This document shows positions 10,171 through 45,898 of a stretch of DNA of 64,000 bases, one piece after another; position 1 is the first letter of the stretch; every line of letters starts with the position of its first letter. The stretch is from Spirochaetia bacterium (GTDB lineage Bacteria; Spirochaetota; Spirochaetia; UBA9216). The position numbers and the translations under genes were made by a program. The stretch covers positions 448,001 to 512,000 of the forward strand of contig OY776510.1 in assembly GCA_963675665.1 (NCBI GenBank), in the 5' to 3' direction. The notes under the pieces are model-generated. The model did not search any database. It saw only the letters and a program-made list of their open reading frames with translations, and was not told where the DNA came from.

Positions 10171-10629
10171 TTTGAACTTTTTGCCGCTGCCGCAGGGACA
10201 AGGTTCGTTGCGGCCGATCTTCGGCGTTTCCCGCACTACGGTAGCCGACGGCGTATAACCGTCGCTGAAATACCAGAAACCGTTCTTTTTTACGAAACTG
10301 CTTATTTCATGATGATCGTATTCTGTTCCATCCTGGCTGAATTTTGCAGTAAATTCTACCTCGCCTTCATCACCCGAACTTTCTGCGCGTTTTATCTCAA
10401 GCCCCAGCCAGTCCGATTCCGCCGCCCATTTTTCAGTAGCTTTGCGATCGAGCCTGTTGAGTCTTGCAGGATCATGCGTATCAACGATGAAATCTATTTC
10501 CTGCATAACATATGCGGTATACCGCGCGCGCATCAGCGCTTCGGGTCCGGAGGCGTTCTTTTTACCGCTGATATACGGTTCGCAGCAAGCTGTATATGAT
10601 TTTCCGCTTCCGCAGGGACAATTACTCAT
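10153..10629 (-). CDS. ychJ: YchJ family protein with N- and C-terminal SEC-C motifs
   Basis: [49 protein letters not shown]. Confidence 0.92.
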
Positions 10630-10762
10630 TTTTCACTCCTGAAAATAATCTTAAATTATCGGTTTTATCCCTAAAATTCAAGCTTTCCCCTTAAAAACAG
10701 GAAGATTACACAAATTCATAAACATTTTCTTGACTTATAACACCTATAGTACTATAGTTATA

Positions 10763-23427: not shown

Positions 23428-24000
23428 CTAAAAAGGTCTCTGCCTGCCGTCCGCTTTTCCACCATACATTCGGTTGTCGTCCCGGCTGCTCATTCCGCCC
23501 CGACCGAACATTCCGTCTTTATCGGCCATTCTTCCGAATCCGGTTTCGTTATCCACCCACGGCAGCTGATATGTGGTACCGTCAATTTCTACAGATTCCA
23601 CAAGCAGCTCTATATTTCCTTCAAGCGCCTCAAGATCGAACATCCTTCCCCGCCCCCCGGGCCCTGCCGCAGGTCCGGCATTCCATGGCATGGTCTCTTC
23701 ATCAACAATATAACCTTTAACTGTGATTTTATCTCCTTCGCTGACATAATCATAAAAAGCCATTGCTCCGGGGGCAATCAGAGTATAACTCTTACCGCCG
23801 GCAACCAGTTCCGGAACGGGAGATTCAAACTTTACCGTACCGGTTACCTCTGCCTGCTCAAGGTCTTCAAGATAACTGTTTCTTGCAAGCTCCCTGGGCT
23901 GCAGTTTAACCACACCGTCTTCATCTGCTTCCTGCGCGCCTGTCGCAAATACTGTCGCAGCAGCTGCAGACATGCATAAAATTAAAAATATTTTCTTCAT
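23428..24000 (-). CDS. Exported accessory protein with Gly/Met/Arg-rich tail
   Basis: Spirochaete-type signal (VFATGAQE); AGGAG SD; upstream of kinase-regulator pair. Confidence 0.7.
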   Translation of the reverse strand: MKKIFLILCMSAAAATVFATGAQEADEDGVVKLQPRELARNSYLEDLEQAEVTGTVKFESPVPELVAGGKSYTLIAPGAMAFYDYVSEGDKITVKGYIVDEETMPWNAGPAAGPGGRGRMFDLEALEGNIELLVESVEIDGTTYQLPWVDNETGFGRMADKDGMFGRGGMSSRDDNRMYGGKADGRQRPF

Positions 24001-24062
24001 TTTTTGCTCCTATAAAAAGTCAACCACAAGCTAAAAATATAAGCTTATGATCTGGTCGGATA

Positions 24063-25175
24063 TCAACCGACCATTACAGCTTCCCATGCTGCTGCCTGCA
24101 TTTCCCTGTATTCTTTTCTAAAAGCCATTTTCATCGGATCAAACGGCTCTCTGGTTTTTAAAATTGTATATACCAAAGTGCTCATCTTGCGGGCGGCAGC
24201 TATTACACTCTTACCCGAGCCTTTCTGCTTCTTCATCGCTGCATACTTCGTCATTATTCGGTACGTCCCGGTCTTCTTTTGCATACGAACCATTCCCATC
24301 ACCATCTGTACGAAGGCTGTCCTCAGTTCTACAGGCCCACGCTTTGTTATATGTCCATGATGTATTGTCATATTTGAGTTCTGCACCCATGGCACAAGCC
24401 CGGCGTTTGCTGCATATTTCTTCGCACTATCATATCTGCCGATATCGTCTGTATAGGCTCTTACTGTTGCTGCTGTTATTAGACCCACGCCTGGTATTGT
24501 CTGCAGAAGCTCAACATCTTCATCGTCCTCCACAAGCTCAGCCAAAACCTTTTCAAGCTGCTTGACTTGCGATGCCTGATTATCTATCATATCCAGTAAC
24601 GGTATTACCGTTTTGGCAGCGCTTCCGTAAAAGTCGTGGTCCTCGAGACCGTTCAGGATTCGCTGCCTTTCTTTTTTACTCTGCAGCTGTCCGCGTTTGG
24701 TCTCTATTCCATAACCAAGTAATAAGCCATGCACCTGGTTCTTTAACGACACAACAGATTTTACCAGTATCGACCTGGATTTCAGCACCCTTCGAATATC
24801 CTCACTCTCTTGGGAACATAATATCGATTCAGGCAGCATGTCTTTCTCAAGAAACTCCGCCAGGGTGCGTGCATCATGTTTGTCTGTCTTTTTTACAGAT
24901 TCATTCACTACCTTGAATTTCAAAGTATTCACTACAACCACTTCGACTCCAGCCTTTAACAGTTTATTGCGGAAATAACGGGCATTCCCGGTTGTTTCCA
25001 CCGCTGCTCTCAACTCATATTCCTCTTCACAATATTCATCCAGCATTTTCAGAAATGCTCCATAACCATTTCCGCTGGTCGGATACATTCCCAATTGATC
25101 AATTTTTCGGTCTTCACTTAAAAGGCATACTGTAAACTGCGTTTTGTGAAGATCCACGCCAATACTCATCTTCAT
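24063..25175 (-). CDS. IS110-family DEDD recombinase/transposase
   Basis: IGVDLHK, AVETTGN, KKTDKHDA (DEDD), LQTIPGVG, GLVPWVQNS (catalytic Ser region), GHITKRGP. Confidence 0.96.
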   Translation of the reverse strand: MKMSIGVDLHKTQFTVCLLSEDRKIDQLGMYPTSGNGYGAFLKMLDEYCEEEYELRAAVETTGNARYFRNKLLKAGVEVVVVNTLKFKVVNESVKKTDKHDARTLAEFLEKDMLPESILCSQESEDIRRVLKSRSILVKSVVSLKNQVHGLLLGYGIETKRGQLQSKKERQRILNGLEDHDFYGSAAKTVIPLLDMIDNQASQVKQLEKVLAELVEDDEDVELLQTIPGVGLITAATVRAYTDDIGRYDSAKKYAANAGLVPWVQNSNMTIHHGHITKRGPVELRTAFVQMVMGMVRMQKKTGTYRIMTKYAAMKKQKGSGKSVIAAARKMSTLVYTILKTREPFDPMKMAFRKEYREMQAAAWEAVMVG

Positions 25176-25204
25176 GTTCTATCTCCAATAGTTTGAAGCA
25201 GTGC

Positions 25205-25370
25205 CTATACGGTGAATTGTTCCATTCTCCTATCCGGTCTCGCAGACCATTGAATGTTTCGGTTACGGCTCTTCAATCTCCTAAACGGTCTCGCGGACCA
25301 GTAAAAATGTCGAACAGTAACCTTACTGCCTCAATTAAAGTTAAGGCAGTATATCAATTCACCAGCTCAT
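25205..25370 (-). ncRNA. Predicted IS110 bridge/seek RNA
   Basis: Closing stem GGTGAATTG/CAATTCACC, 5' hairpin 25324-25351, two loops sharing a GGTC(C/T)GCGAGACC hairpin, flanked by segments matching the target and donor junctions. Confidence 0.82.
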
Positions 25371-25413
25371 GAAGACTTTTTATCATTCCTCCTAAAAAGT
25401 TGTTACTTTTATA

Positions 25414-25431
25414 AAGCAATATGCATACCAA
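25414..25431 (-). promoter_or_regulatory. Sigma-54 (-24/-12) promoter
   Basis: TTGGTATGCATATTGCTT = GG-N10-GC; predicted start ~25404, just before the SD at 25393. Confidence 0.8.
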
Positions 25432-25508
25432 AAAAATATTGAAAAAGAGGATTTATTGGGTATTTTTTAGAGATTTAACAGTGAATTTAAGGATTTCAAA
25501 ATGCCTCC

Positions 25509-25553
25509 CGGGGCAATTTTCCCCATCATAGAATTCAGAGGATTTTTGCCCCG
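25509..25553. promoter_or_regulatory. Paired upstream activator boxes for a sigma-54 activator
   Basis: CGGGGCAATTTTCCCC and GAGGATTTTTGCCCCG, ~110-140 bp upstream of the predicted start. Confidence 0.6.
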
Positions 25554-25599
25554 AAGATTGCAGAACCCGTGCTTAAAAAGCAACAGGCCCGGTGCAGGT

Positions 25600-26043
25600 T
25601 TAAATTACTGATTCAGATTCAACGGTATCCGGTGAAGATGAATATGCAAGCTCTTCATCAGTAATCTCATCAGCTTCTGTATCACCGCCGTTTTCGGTTC
25701 TGAAATCTTCCTTACCGAATGTCGGCCTTTTCTCAATATACTCTGCTACGAGTTTTAACCTTGATCTCGGATTTCCTTCCCTGTCTTCCCAGCGGTCCTG
25801 TTTTAATCTTCCTACTATACGGACTCCCTTGCCTTTGGAGAAATTGTTCTCACTGTAGGTTGCAAGCCTCGTCCATGCTTCAATATCCAGAAACGTCACT
25901 TCTTTCTGGTATTCATCATCCTGTTTATAATAACGGTTTGATGCCACGGTAAAGTTACAAACCTTCGTACCTTTAGGCGTTTCACTTAGAATCGGATCTC
26001 TGACAAGATTTCCTTCAATTATTACTGAGTTAACAGAATTCAT
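25600..26043 (-). CDS. ssb: Single-stranded DNA-binding protein
   Basis: NSVIIEGNLVRDP, FTVASNR, KGKGVRIVGRLKQDRW; acidic tail. Confidence 0.92.
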   Translation of the reverse strand: MNSVNSVIIEGNLVRDPILSETPKGTKVCNFTVASNRYYKQDDEYQKEVTFLDIEAWTRLATYSENNFSKGKGVRIVGRLKQDRWEDREGNPRSRLKLVAEYIEKRPTFGKEDFRTENGGDTEADEITDEELAYSSSPDTVESESVI

Positions 26044-44644: not shown

Positions 44645-45748
44645 TACATGAATCCTTACAATTGAACCGGTAGCAAAAACTGCAACGCAAACAATAAATA
44701 ATACAGCCTCCCTGAAAAACGGTTTAATCATAATATAAAATTTGACAATCAAAGCGGAGACAACGGTGACTCCGAAGGAGATGAGCAATACCGTTCCCGT
44801 TGATAAACATCCGTGGGGAATCAGCAATCGCATCCATCCTATTATCATCCAGTGAATAACATAAAAAGACGTCAGGTATTTCCCCAAGAATGAAAGAAAC
44901 CCTGTTTTCAATTTTGCCGGAAAGATTCTGTCGATAAAACCGATTAGAAAACTCCATACAAGTACAAACCCTCCGATAGCAAAAAGTCCGGCTGCTTTCA
45001 TCTGCCCGTAATCATTAAAAAAGCGATCAAAATCCTTAACAAGGGGAACTATTGCGACTGTTATTGCAGCACATCCGGTTGTAAATAAAAACAGATAGTA
45101 ACGCTTTGAGATTATATTCAATAATTTTCCAAACACCATACCCTGCAGGGGGAAAAACAGCCAGGGAAACAACGGAAAGGTGACCAGGTCATGATCATTG
45201 CCCCAGAGAGGCTCAATTATTCTTCCCAATACCGGAATTCCCTCGCCGCGGCCCCACAGAAACGGAGAGAAAAAGGCAATAACGCATGCAATCAATTCCC
45301 ATATCCACAATTTCCGTGAAAACCGGGAAATCAGACTCATGCATATGAATGCAAGTCCCGCAAAGATCAGGATATCAACCGTAAGAAAAAGATATTCATA
45401 GGTATACATCGGCGAGAAATGATCTGCCGGCAGCTGCAAAAATTCTTTGCCGATAAAGACAGGAACTACGCCCCTGAAAAAATTTAAAAGATATCCGATA
45501 AACAGCAGCTGAATGCCCCTTTTAATATTTCCCGGCAGATCCATGAAATCTTTCCGGGCAAAAAGAAATCCCATGATAACCATAAAAACAGGAGCCGCCG
45601 GCGGTCCGCCAAGGAAATCAATCAGAACTCTTGAGGTTTCTCTCGGACCGTCGAAATCGGCAAAAACATTCATCACATGGACCATCACCATAAAAACGAC
45701 AGCCAGCCCCCGCAGGACATCAAGAATCCCGAACCGTTGTTTATTCAT
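44609..45748 (-). CDS. Membrane acyltransferase-like protein (HGSNAT/DUF1624-type)
   Basis: RF..LDVLRGLAV..MVMVH, AAPVFM, FPLFPW. Confidence 0.8.
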   Translation of the reverse strand: MNKQRFGILDVLRGLAVVFMVMVHVMNVFADFDGPRETSRVLIDFLGGPPAAPVFMVIMGFLFARKDFMDLPGNIKRGIQLLFIGYLLNFFRGVVPVFIGKEFLQLPADHFSPMYTYEYLFLTVDILIFAGLAFICMSLISRFSRKLWIWELIACVIAFFSPFLWGRGEGIPVLGRIIEPLWGNDHDLVTFPLFPWLFFPLQGMVFGKLLNIISKRYYLFLFTTGCAAITVAIVPLVKDFDRFFNDYGQMKAAGLFAIGGFVLVWSFLIGFIDRIFPAKLKTGFLSFLGKYLTSFYVIHWMIIGWMRLLIPHGCLSTGTVLLISFGVTVVSALIVKFYIMIKPFFREAVLFIVCVAVFATGSIVRIHVLRRNLFVKFDE

Positions 45749-45898
45749 TTTTCACTCCTGCAGGCATTATCAGGGAATGAAATAATCATATAAATGGGAA
45801 ATTAGTACCGGACAACCGGGATTTTGTATGGGAAAAAAGTACCGGTCTTCCTTCTTCAGACCGGTCGGTCAATACCGCCGCCTACAGCGCCTGAAAAT

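What the first reader, a model, noticed from the sequence alone, without database searches (positions are those of the whole stretch)
25205..25370. IS110 bridge RNA whose target guides spell a Shine-Dalgarno plus start codon
Seen: on the transposase strand the left non-coding end has a 9-bp closing stem (25211-25219 / 25355-25363), a 5' hairpin (25324-25351) and two loops built on the same GGTC(C/T)GCGAGACC hairpin. Loop 1 is flanked by CATTTTTACT (25309-25300) and TTTAGGAG (25285-25278). The reconstructed empty site is TTTTTAGGAG-CAAAAAATG: TTTAGGAG matches 8/8 and the other arm 7/8 around a CT/AG core. Loop 2 carries ATAGGAG (25233-25227) and CATTC (25256-25252), matching the circle junction TTTTATAGGAG-GAATG; the CATTC arm is one base out of register. 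Established: IS110/IS1111 recombinases use such RNAs to pair with target and donor DNA. Inference: the programmed target is TTTAGGAGTAAAAATG, an idealised RBS-spacer-ATG, so this RNA-guided element homes to translation initiation regions. It rebuilds the AGGAG of the downstream gene and spares the coding sequence. Similar start regions occur at 10627-10640 and 45746-45759. I cannot check whether this targeting has been reported before.
Basis: partly seen in the sequence, partly recalled or inferred. Interest (0 to 1): 0.92.

Follow-up and report, generated by a model that had tools for sequence, protein, structure and literature searches.

The report
Bridge-RNA insertion element aimed at gene starts
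This is a small jumping gene whose own guide RNA is written to recognise the ribosome-binding site and start codon of host genes, so it lands just in front of genes and puts a new ribosome-binding site back.

Summary
Window 24007-25388 (minus strand) is an intact 1382-bp IS110-family element. Covariation in 30 distinct relatives supports that fold.

The 3' arm of the first loop is a 7-nt guide, NN+AGGAG. It matches the left flank at 89-100% per position in 47 insertions and covaries with it. An ATG lies 3-9 nt beyond the right end in 43 of 46 insertions, against 119 of 580 background AGGAG sites. The 5' arm carries an almost invariant complement of ATG, and the 3 nt next to it covary with the bases just upstream of the host start codon. 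That register is flexible rather than a fixed 16-mer.

The right end always finishes in ATAGGAG, so the host gene's Shine-Dalgarno is rebuilt. Relatives at 32-40% identity behave the same way.

Two corrections apply. In the RNA's own frame the core is the canonical CT, and the element sits inverted relative to IS621. Targeting of translation initiation signals was already described for IS900. I found no paper explaining it through bridge-RNA guides.

The parts
24007..25388 (-). Whole IS110-family element, 1382 bp, counting one copy of the shared core AG (CT in the RNA frame)
   Evidence: Junctions read. Boundaries agree with 48 related copies of 1362-1443 bp whose ends were both found.
24063..25175 (-). 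Recombinase gene, 370 aa
   Evidence: Pfam DEDD_Tnp_IS110 (9.3e-18) and Transposase_20 (1.4e-17). Aligns to IS621 and ISCro4 transposases (5.6e-15, 7.2e-16), with D8, E60, D98, D101 and S267 at the catalytic positions.
25205..25370 (-). The true 5' and 3' ends are not determined.
   Evidence: Fold z = -4.45. Covariation on 30 sequences.
25355..25363 (-). Closing stem, 5' strand. It pairs with 25211-25219 and encloses the 5' hairpin, loop 1 and loop 2.
   Evidence: I9. Helix 1: 86% of cells paired, 4 of 9 pairs with changes on both sides.
25324..25351 (-). 5' stem-loop
   Evidence: I7. Helix 2: 9 of 11 pairs with changes on both sides.
25300..25309 (-). Target loop, 5' arm CATTTTTACT. It holds the complement of ATG, five variable bases, and two bases that face the core. 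In the RNA frame this is the left target guide.
   Evidence: CAT is present in 29 of 30 distinct sequences. The bases next to it match the host bases at -1, -2 and -3 of the ATG more often than non-cognate guides do (.51 vs .28.53 vs .41.63 vs .51). They also match better than same-genome SD-ATG sites.
25287..25299 (-). Target-loop hairpin GGTCCGCGAGACC
   Evidence: Helix 4: 97.5% paired, 2 of 4 pairs with changes on both sides.
25278..25284 (-). Target loop, 3' arm. The 7-nt guide TTAGGAG has the same sense as the left flank. In the RNA frame this is an extended right target guide pairing with the core CT plus five bases.
   Evidence: per-position match .89-1.0 over 47 sites. Position -8 matches at only .32, so it is not part of the guide.
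25249..25256 (-). Donor loop, 5' arm CATTCAAT. CATTC is complementary to the first five bases of the element.
   Evidence: 144 of 150 positions match across 30 sequences, with four covarying variants of the left end.
25236..25248 (-). Donor-loop hairpin GGTCTGCGAGACC
   Evidence: Helix 5: 100% paired, 2 of 4 pairs with changes on both sides.
25227..25233 (-). Donor loop, 3' arm ATAGGAG, identical to the last seven bases of the element
   Evidence: Invariant in all 30 sequences. The right end is invariant too, so this pairing shows no covariation either way.
25389..25395 (-). Left half of the target: the host Shine-Dalgarno TTAGGAG
   Evidence: 7 of 7 match to the 3' arm.
23998..24006 (-). Right half of the target: a 6-nt spacer and the ATG of the host gene
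   Evidence: 190-aa ORF 23428-24000.
24007..24023 (-). Right end. It carries TTGACT (24018-24023, a -35-like hexamer) and then ATAGGAG, which supplies a new Shine-Dalgarno 6 nt before the host ATG.
   Evidence: The 17-mer is conserved in nearly all relatives.
25377..25385 (-). TG-n-TAAAAA in the left end, an extended -10-like element. In a circle it would lie 17 nt after the TTGACT of the right end.
   Evidence: Sequence; the columns are invariant or nearly so. The promoter is inferred, not shown.
25374..25383 (-). Subterminal inverted repeat of 10 bp, partner at 24012-24021
   Evidence: I5, 100% complementary.
24616..24667 (-). Stem / internal loop / GGTC-GACC hairpin embedded in the recombinase coding sequence. 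Side observation.
   Evidence: (I1). The hairpin is 100% paired in 19 sequences, and 2 of 4 pairs changed on both sides although the encoded amino acids change.

Best explanation
This is an intact IS110-family insertion sequence that uses a bridge RNA transcribed from its left end.

Shown here by sequence and covariation:
- The RNA has two internal loops, each built around a GGTC/GACC hairpin.
- The donor loop matches the element's own ends. Its 5' arm is complementary to the first five bases. Its 3' arm is identical to the last seven.
- The 3' arm of the target loop is a 7-nt guide spelling NN+AGGAG.
- The 5' arm of the target loop carries the complement of ATG plus a few bases that track the host bases just upstream of the start codon.
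- Insertions therefore fall between the Shine-Dalgarno sequence and the start codon of host genes, always co-directional with the gene.
- The right end finishes in ATAGGAG, so the gene keeps a ribosome-binding site.

Inferred from the published IS621 mechanism:
- The recombinase and RNA pair the 3' arm with the strand that reads CT+CCTNN. The core is therefore the canonical CT, and the chemically 'top' strand is antisense to the recombinase gene.
- The excised circle joins TTGACT to TG-n-TAAAAA across 17 nt and makes a promoter for the RNA.

Inferred by me:
- Co-directional insertion in a 5' UTR lets the host promoter transcribe the RNA and recombinase, then read on into the host gene.
- Using the near-universal SD/ATG signal as target explains why the lineage occurs in several phyla.
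For: - Family: Pfam domains. Catalytic D8, E60, D98, D101 and S267 by alignment to IS621 chain 8wt6_A.
- Fold: (z = -4.45); 87.0% paired against 24-47% when slid, 20 of 38 pairs with double changes, 0 of 500 shuffles.
- SD guide. 47 sites.89-1.0 match at -7 to -1, 102 of 141 against 57.7 +/- 8.8, 0 of 5000. For example, the ACAGGAG guide has ACAGGAG flanks in 8 of 10 Oceanispirochaeta copies.
- Start codon: ATG at 3-9 nt in 43 of 46 sites, against 119 of 580 AGGAG and 46 of 176 AAGGAG sites in 256,600 background bases. Fisher p = 4e-24 and 2e-17. An ORF of at least 50 aa follows in 43 of 49 sites.
- 5' arm, shuffled guides: ATG-anchored match is 108 against 85.5 +/- 7.4 (p = 0.0002).
- 5' arm, same-genome SD-ATG sites: 2.56 against 1.64 of 5. 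Stratified permutation gives 80 against 58.0 +/- 4.7, 0 of 20000.
- Spacers cluster at 5-7 nt, more tightly than background SD sites (Mann-Whitney p = 0.023).
- Donor loop: 144 of 150.
- Rebuilt SD: the right end is conserved in every copy with an end.
- Distant relatives (32-40% identity): the left flank ends in AGGAG in 12 of 14, and an ATG lies within 13 nt in 14 of 15.
- No terminator-like site lies between the recombinase gene and the host gene.
Against: - No RNA, circle or recombination has been observed. Everything rests on sequence.
- Core-anchored matching of the 5' arm is weak: 99 against 87.6 +/- 7.6, p = 0.08. Per-position matches are .36-.51.
- Contiguous pairing predicts a 5-nt spacer, but the mode is 6 and the range is 3-9. 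The geometry of start-codon recognition is therefore unexplained.
- In 22 of 30 sequences the base facing the second core position is A or T rather than C.
- Three of 46 sites lack an ATG (L011, L033, L056). Six of 49 are followed by an ORF under 50 aa.
- L056 lacks the CAT and its right flank does not match its own arm.
- Part of the ATG enrichment could come from loss of harmful intragenic insertions.
- The shuffles keep composition but not relatedness, and several families share recent ancestry.
- The empty site was not seen in any genome.
- Rfam has no matching family.
Confidence: 0.8

Rival explanations
1. Only the Shine-Dalgarno half is RNA-guided. The start codon is not recognised. ATG follows the insertion sites because genuine SD sequences are followed by ATG, and because insertions at AGGAG sites inside genes are lost by selection. 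The conserved CAT in the 5' arm is structural.
For: - Core-anchored matching of the 5' arm is not significant (p = 0.08).
- Spacer length varies from 3 to 9.
- RNAalifold pairs the C and A of CAT with a conserved TG on the other side of the loop (columns 100-101 with 146-147, 29 of 30 each, no covariation).
- Most background AGGAG sites without an ATG probably lie in coding sequence.
Against: - The bases next to CAT match the host bases at -1 to -3 of the ATG better than non-cognate guides do (p = .008.04.02).
- They also match better than real SD-ATG sites of the same genomes (0 of 20000 permutations).
- Spacers are more tightly clustered than at background SD sites.
- In the donor loop the equivalent CAT is demonstrably a guide: it covaries with the left end, for example CGT with ACG.
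Confidence: 0.17
2. Target choice is made by the protein, or by simple identity between the element's right end (ATAGGAG) and the target (AGGAG) as in an att-type crossover region. The RNA structure would be only a 5' UTR regulator of the recombinase gene.
For: - Donor and target share five identical bases (AGGAG), so the crossover point cannot be placed by sequence alone.
- A segment just upstream of the recombinase ribosome-binding site can pair with the 3' half of the 5' stem-loop, with many compensatory changes. This looks regulatory.
Against: - The two positions 5' of AGGAG differ from the donor (AT) and follow the RNA arm instead: AC, AA, TA, AG, GA, TT.
- The donor-loop arm covaries with the left end.
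- The family mechanism is established experimentally for IS621 (PMC11208160 and PMC11208158, passages).
Confidence: 0.03

Closest known systems
IS621 and its bridge RNA (IS110 group; Durrant et al. 2024, Hiraizumi et al. 2024)
   Same: - A DEDD plus serine recombinase.
- The RNA is encoded in a long left end.
- Two internal loops, each with a stem-loop, carry guides for the target and for the circle junction.
- By my alignment of motifs to the positions given, segment lengths correspond: a CG linker, then 11 nt to the hairpin, then G-N and a 7-nt 3' guide (4 plus the 3-nt extension), then two further bases.
- The core is CT in the RNA frame.
- The donor-side pairing is discontiguous, with one extra RNA base.
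- The promoter is split between the two ends.
   Different: - The arm with the same sense as the flank next to the left end is the 3' arm here but the 5' arm in IS621. The RNA/recombinase cassette is therefore inverted relative to the donor core.
- The strict specificity sits in the 7-nt 3' arm. The 9-10-nt 5' arm tolerates many mismatches, whereas IS621 needs all nine non-core positions.
- The donor-loop stem is the outer closing stem and encloses the 5' hairpin and the target loop. In IS621 the domains are serial.
- The subterminal inverted repeat is 10 bp, against 2-3 bp reported for the IS110 group.
- Protein similarity is only 59 bits.
- The figures of those papers are not held, so I could not check whether other subgroups drawn there share this layout.
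IS900 of Mycobacterium avium subsp. paratuberculosis (IS110 family)
   Same: IS900 inserts at translation initiation signals. The published target motif on the IS900 strand is CATGNNNNNNTCTCCTT, meaning start-codon complement, spacer, SD complement (PMC8141618, passages). The title of Doran et al. 1997 was seen in two reference lists. In the RNA frame this is the same kind of target as here.
   Different: - The IS900 recombinase gene is antisense to the targeted host gene, and the host SD is said to serve the hed ORF on the other strand.
- Here the recombinase is co-directional with the host gene and the element returns an SD to it.
IS1111 group elements and seekRNA (Siddiquee et al. 2024)
   Same: An RNA-guided DEDD transposase, orientation-specific insertion, and long subterminal inverted repeats of 7-17 bp.
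   Different: Their RNA lies downstream of the transposase in the right end. Here it lies upstream in the left end.

Membership tests
IS110-family bridge-RNA element | Recombinase with an N-terminal DEDD (RuvC-like) domain and a C-terminal Tnp domain carrying the catalytic serine | tested here: met
   Pfam PF01548 and PF02371 above cut-off. D8, E60, D98, D101 and S267 align with IS621 D11, E60, D102, D105 and S241; chain numbering is offset by +2.
IS110-family bridge-RNA element | Structured non-coding RNA in a non-coding end, with two internal loops each holding a stem-loop | tested here: met
   five helices, 87.0% paired, 20 of 38 pairs with changes on both sides, 0 of 500 shuffles; z = -4.45.
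IS110-family bridge-RNA element | Target-loop guides complementary to, and covarying with, both halves of the insertion site | tested here: met
   3' arm: (0 of 5000). 5' arm: weaker and only when anchored at the ATG.
IS110-family bridge-RNA element | [quoted passage not shown] | tested here: met
   5' arm against the first five bases: 144 of 150, with covariation. The 3' arm is identical to the last seven bases but both are invariant.
IS110-family bridge-RNA element | Shared core dinucleotide at both junctions, without a longer target duplication | tested here: met
   AG (CT on the other strand) ends both the left flank and the element in 46 of 47 left flanks and in all but one right end (L027 ends GG). 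The exact crossover within the shared AGGAG cannot be placed.
IS110-family bridge-RNA element | Promoter rebuilt across the circle junction | tested here: inconclusive
   TTGACT in the right end and TG-n-TAAAAA in the left end would be 17 nt apart in a circle. This is motif evidence only. The scan tool cannot see a junction that is not contiguous in the window.
IS110-family bridge-RNA element | The RNA is made, binds the recombinase and directs recombination through a circular intermediate | not testable with these tools
   Needs RNA-seq, pull-down and recombination assays.
IS621-like layout (IS110 group) | The 5' arm of the target loop has the same sense as the flank adjacent to the left end | tested here: not met
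   Here the 3' arm has that sense. The IS621 layout was taken from passages of PMC11208158 and PMC11208160.
IS900-type targeting of translation initiation signals | Insertion between a Shine-Dalgarno sequence and a start codon | tested here: met
IS900-type targeting of translation initiation signals | Recombinase gene antisense to the targeted host gene | tested here: not met
   It is co-directional in all 43 sites that have a following ATG.
IS1111 group | Guide RNA in the right end, downstream of the transposase | tested here: not met
   The left end is 213 nt and structured. The right end is 56 nt.

The most novel reading that the evidence does not exclude
A broad-host-range IS110 lineage has evolved its bridge RNA to read the near-universal translation-initiation signal. 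A strict 7-nt guide reads the Shine-Dalgarno sequence. A second arm is anchored on the start codon and tolerates a variable-length unpaired gap next to the crossover, a mode of target reading not described for IS621.

The element has also flipped its RNA/recombinase cassette relative to the crossover site. It therefore enters 5' UTRs co-directionally, borrows the host promoter, and hands the gene a replacement ribosome-binding site. The same logic would explain the target preference of IS900 that has been known since the 1990s.
Probability: 0.45. Interest if true: 0.78.

Novelty: new variant of a known kind. Interest (0 to 1): 0.64.

Why it matters
Bridge RNAs are being developed as programmable genome-writing tools, and natural examples show what the system tolerates.

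- **Where specificity sits.** It is in the extended 3' guide, while the long 5' guide works with many mismatches and a flexible register. This differs from the IS621 design rules.
- **Explanation for an old observation.** It offers a mechanism for why some IS110-family elements land on translation initiation signals.
- **A low-damage insertion strategy.** The target exists in front of many genes in many bacteria. The element enters in the gene's direction and restores the ribosome-binding site.
- **Host range.** Relatives with 52-79% protein identity occur in records titled Spirochaetia, Syntrophales, Desulfobacterales, Dehalococcoidales and others. This fits a target that is portable between hosts. 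Most of these records are metagenome bins, so host assignments may be wrong.

Tried and rejected
- **Rfam.** No match at E up to 1 in 23900-25600, so no curated family covers this RNA.
- **Single-sequence folding.** The minimum-energy fold pairs the guide arms with each other. I did not use that inner part.
- **RNAalifold on the left ends.** It preferred a long-range pairing over the closing stem.
- **Alternative core.** I considered the first AG of AGGAG as core. I rejected it because the 5' arm would then have to end in the complement of GGAG, which it does not.
- **Linker U.** I considered that the last U of the 5' arm is a mere linker, as U59 is in IS621, which would make a 9-nt guide that fits a 6-nt spacer exactly. 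The base facing the first spacer position does not match well (.36 against .28, p = .25). This stays open.
- **Threonine nucleophile.** I suspected that a threonine in ITKRG replaced the catalytic serine. It does not: the serine aligning with IS621 S241 is S267, in QNSN.
- **Handshake guides.** The two bases after each 3' arm do not obviously match the non-cognate DNA. I did not pursue this.
- **Exact 7-nt guide plus ATG elsewhere in the window.** No match.
- **Coding-sequence segment alignment.** It failed to line up the distant group, and RNAalifold returned no pairs. I repeated the count on 19 sequences that align without gaps.
- **Plasmid collection.** One relative only, in Thiospirochaeta perfilievii pSpe.

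Not examined:
- Loci L075, L077 and L081 were not looked at. L074 was only viewed.
- L029, L036, L052, L057, L060 and L061 lack a complete left end and were left out of the guide analyses. L029, L052 and L060 still count among the 49 right flanks.
An empty target site and further copies in the source genome therefore stayed unchecked.
- Supplementary data of the bridge-RNA papers were not opened. They may list target motifs of this lineage.

Full report
**What is there**

On the minus strand, 25388 to 24007 is a 1382-bp insertion sequence. Its 370-aa ORF (25175-24063) carries both Pfam domains of IS110-family recombinases. It aligns with the solved IS621 and ISCro4 transposases. D8, E60, D98, D101 and S267 sit at the catalytic positions.

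The left flank ends in TTAGGAG. The element begins with GAATG and ends with TTGACT, five T, then ATAGGAG. The right flank is CAAAAA followed by the ATG of a 190-aa ORF. A perfect 10-bp subterminal inverted repeat lies at 25374-25383 / 24012-24021.

**Check of the observation**

The GGTCYGCGAGACC hairpin occurs twice in the left end and once, with one mismatch, inside the ORF. The expected count is 0.05. The 213-nt left end folds better than all 200 shuffles (z = -4.45). Rfam has no family for it.

**Relatives**

One plasmid copy was found (Thiospirochaeta perfilievii pSpe, 72.7% DNA identity). I used the window, L001 and L002-L061 for the main analysis.

55 loci had a recognisable left end, giving 30 distinct sequences. 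Six loci with truncated left ends were left out of the guide analyses. Several genomes hold many copies at different places: 9 in a Syntrophales bin, 10 in an Oceanispirochaeta bin and 12 contig ends in Marispirochaeta. These are independent insertions made by one guide.

**Structure**

20 of 38 pairs changed on both sides, and no shuffle in 500 reached the covariation score. Each helix has compensatory changes.

**The Shine-Dalgarno guide**

The 3' arm of loop 1 reads G, N, then NN+AGGAG. In 47 left flanks the match at positions -8 to -1 is .32.89.96.96, 1.98, 1, 1. The guide is therefore 7 nt long.

The variable positions follow the RNA. ACAGGAG guides sit beside ACAGGAG flanks, and the same holds for AAAGGAG, TAAGGAG, AGAGGAG and GAAGGAG. 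The score is 102 of 141, against 57.7 +/- 8.8 when guides are shuffled among families (0 of 5000).

**The start codon**

An ATG lies 3-9 nt after the right end in 43 of 46 sites. Spacer counts are 3:1, 4:1, 5:7, 6:20, 7:8, 8:4, 9:2. An ORF of at least 50 aa starts within 15 nt in 43 of 49 right flanks.

In 256,600 bases of surrounding sequence, 119 of 580 AGGAG sites and 46 of 176 AAGGAG sites are followed by an ATG in that range. Fisher p is 4e-24 and 2e-17. The 7-nt guide alone does not explain the pattern.

The 5' arm is CAT, five variable bases, one variable base and an invariant T. CAT is present in 29 of 30 sequences. Results for this arm:
- Anchored at the core, its match to the flank is weak: 99 against 87.6 +/- 7.6, p = 0.08.
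- Anchored at the ATG it is clear: 108 against 85.5 +/- 7.4, p = 0.0002.
- The signal comes from the three bases next to CAT (p = .008.04.02).
- Against real SD-ATG sites of the same genomes, insertion sites match the cognate arm better: 2.56 against 1.64 of 5, 0 of 20000 stratified permutations.
- Spacers are more tightly clustered than at background SD sites (p = 0.023).

I conclude that the start codon region is read by the RNA, but not in a fixed register. How a gap of one to four bases next to the crossover is accommodated is unknown.

**The donor loop**

CATTC in its 5' arm is complementary to the first five bases of the element in 144 of 150 positions. Four left-end variants covary with the arm. 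IS621 has a similar discontiguous pairing. The 3' arm ATAGGAG equals the last seven bases. Both are invariant.

**Frame and orientation**

In IS621 the 5' arm of the target loop has the sense of the flank next to the left end, and the 3' arm is a 4-nt guide, extendable to 7, that ends on the core. Here the segment lengths correspond, but the 3' arm has the sense of that flank.

Read in the RNA's frame, the target is start-codon complement, spacer, CT, CCTNN, with the canonical CT core. The RNA/recombinase cassette is inverted relative to IS621. The recombinase gene is therefore co-directional with the targeted host gene.

**Consequences (inferred)**

- The right end puts ATAGGAG where the host AGGAG was, so the gene keeps a ribosome-binding site at its original spacing.
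- No terminator-like site lies between the recombinase gene and the host gene.
- The host promoter would therefore transcribe the RNA, the recombinase and then the gene.
- In a circle, TTGACT of the right end and TG-n-TAAAAA of the left end would be 17 nt apart. This is a promoter split between the ends, as described for IS621.

**Breadth**

Relatives at only 32-40% protein identity have different ends and hairpins but the same habit. Their records are titled Lentisphaeria, Victivallales and Clostridia. The left flank ends in AGGAG in 12 of 14, and an ATG lies within 13 nt of the right end in 14 of 15.

**What is known**

- Bridge RNAs: PMC11208160 and PMC11208158 (passages). seekRNA: PMC11187229 (passages).
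- IS900 of the same family has the published target motif CATGNNNNNNTCTCCTT on its own strand, and a hed ORF on the opposite strand that depends on host signals (PMC8141618, passages).
- The title 'IS900 targets translation initiation signals...' (Doran 1997) was seen in reference lists only.
- Five full-text searches combining IS110 with bridge RNA, seekRNA, Shine-Dalgarno, ribosome binding site, RBS or start codon found no paper that links the guides to this target. Passages read did not either.
- Figures and supplements were not seen.

**Verdict**

It is a new variant of a known kind.

Noticed in passing
window 24616-24667 (minus strand), inside the recombinase ORF; same place in L001-L037: The coding sequence can form a 7-bp stem, an internal loop and a GGTC/GACC hairpin like those of the bridge RNA loops. 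In 19 gap-free relatives the hairpin is 100% paired. Two of its four pairs changed on both sides (GGTC/GACC to GTGC/GCAC or GTTC/GAAC) while the encoded amino acids changed. Its 5' arm is the reverse complement of the target loop's 3' arm and partly follows it. Its 3' arm reads ATAGGAG in most relatives. In the window this stretch is 91% complementary over 22 nt to 25279-25300 (I1). It may be a third recombinase-binding module, or a site of pairing between the bridge RNA and the mRNA.
   Followed up: partly
window 25193-25203 versus 25324-25334 (alignment A1 columns 224-233 with 75-84): A segment just upstream of the recombinase ribosome-binding site can pair with the 3' half of the 5' stem-loop, excluding that stem-loop. 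Eight of the nine pairs changed on both sides in at least four sequences each. It looks like a switch between a bridge-RNA fold and an mRNA fold.
   Followed up: partly
L030:3620-3680: The right end of this copy is duplicated: about 28 nt including TTGACT through ATAGGAG occur twice in tandem. The right junction of any copy itself resembles a target (ATAGGAG, spacer, ATG), so re-insertion next to an existing copy is conceivable.
   Followed up: no
L056 (uncultured Leptospira bin): This is an outlier copy. The 5' arm lacks CAT, the 3' arm reads TTGAGAG, and the left flank ends TTTAGAG. No ATG follows, and the right flank does not match the arm. It may be a retargeted or decayed copy.
   Followed up: no
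window 25389-25400 versus 24007-24023: The host sequence left of the element (ACTTTTTA then GGAG) resembles the element's own right end (ACTTTTTATA then GGAG) beyond the shared AGGAG. This may be chance or a remnant of an older copy; it was not resolved.
   Followed up: no
window 10627-10640 and 45746-45759: Two identical 14-mers, CATTTTTCACTCCT on the + strand, are start regions of minus-strand genes. They fit the 5' arm well but the 7-nt SD guide only 5 of 7, and neither is occupied.
   Followed up: partly
L026, L028, L055, L058: These copies have interrupted recombinase reading frames of 38, 276, 232 and 299 aa before a stop, while their ends and RNA regions look intact. They are probably decaying copies or assembly errors. 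L059 (165 aa) is simply cut by the contig end.
   Followed up: no
window 25600-26043 (minus strand): The gene upstream of the insertion encodes a single-strand DNA-binding protein (Pfam SSB, 4.5e-27). The targeted gene (23428-24000) has no Pfam match.
   Followed up: no
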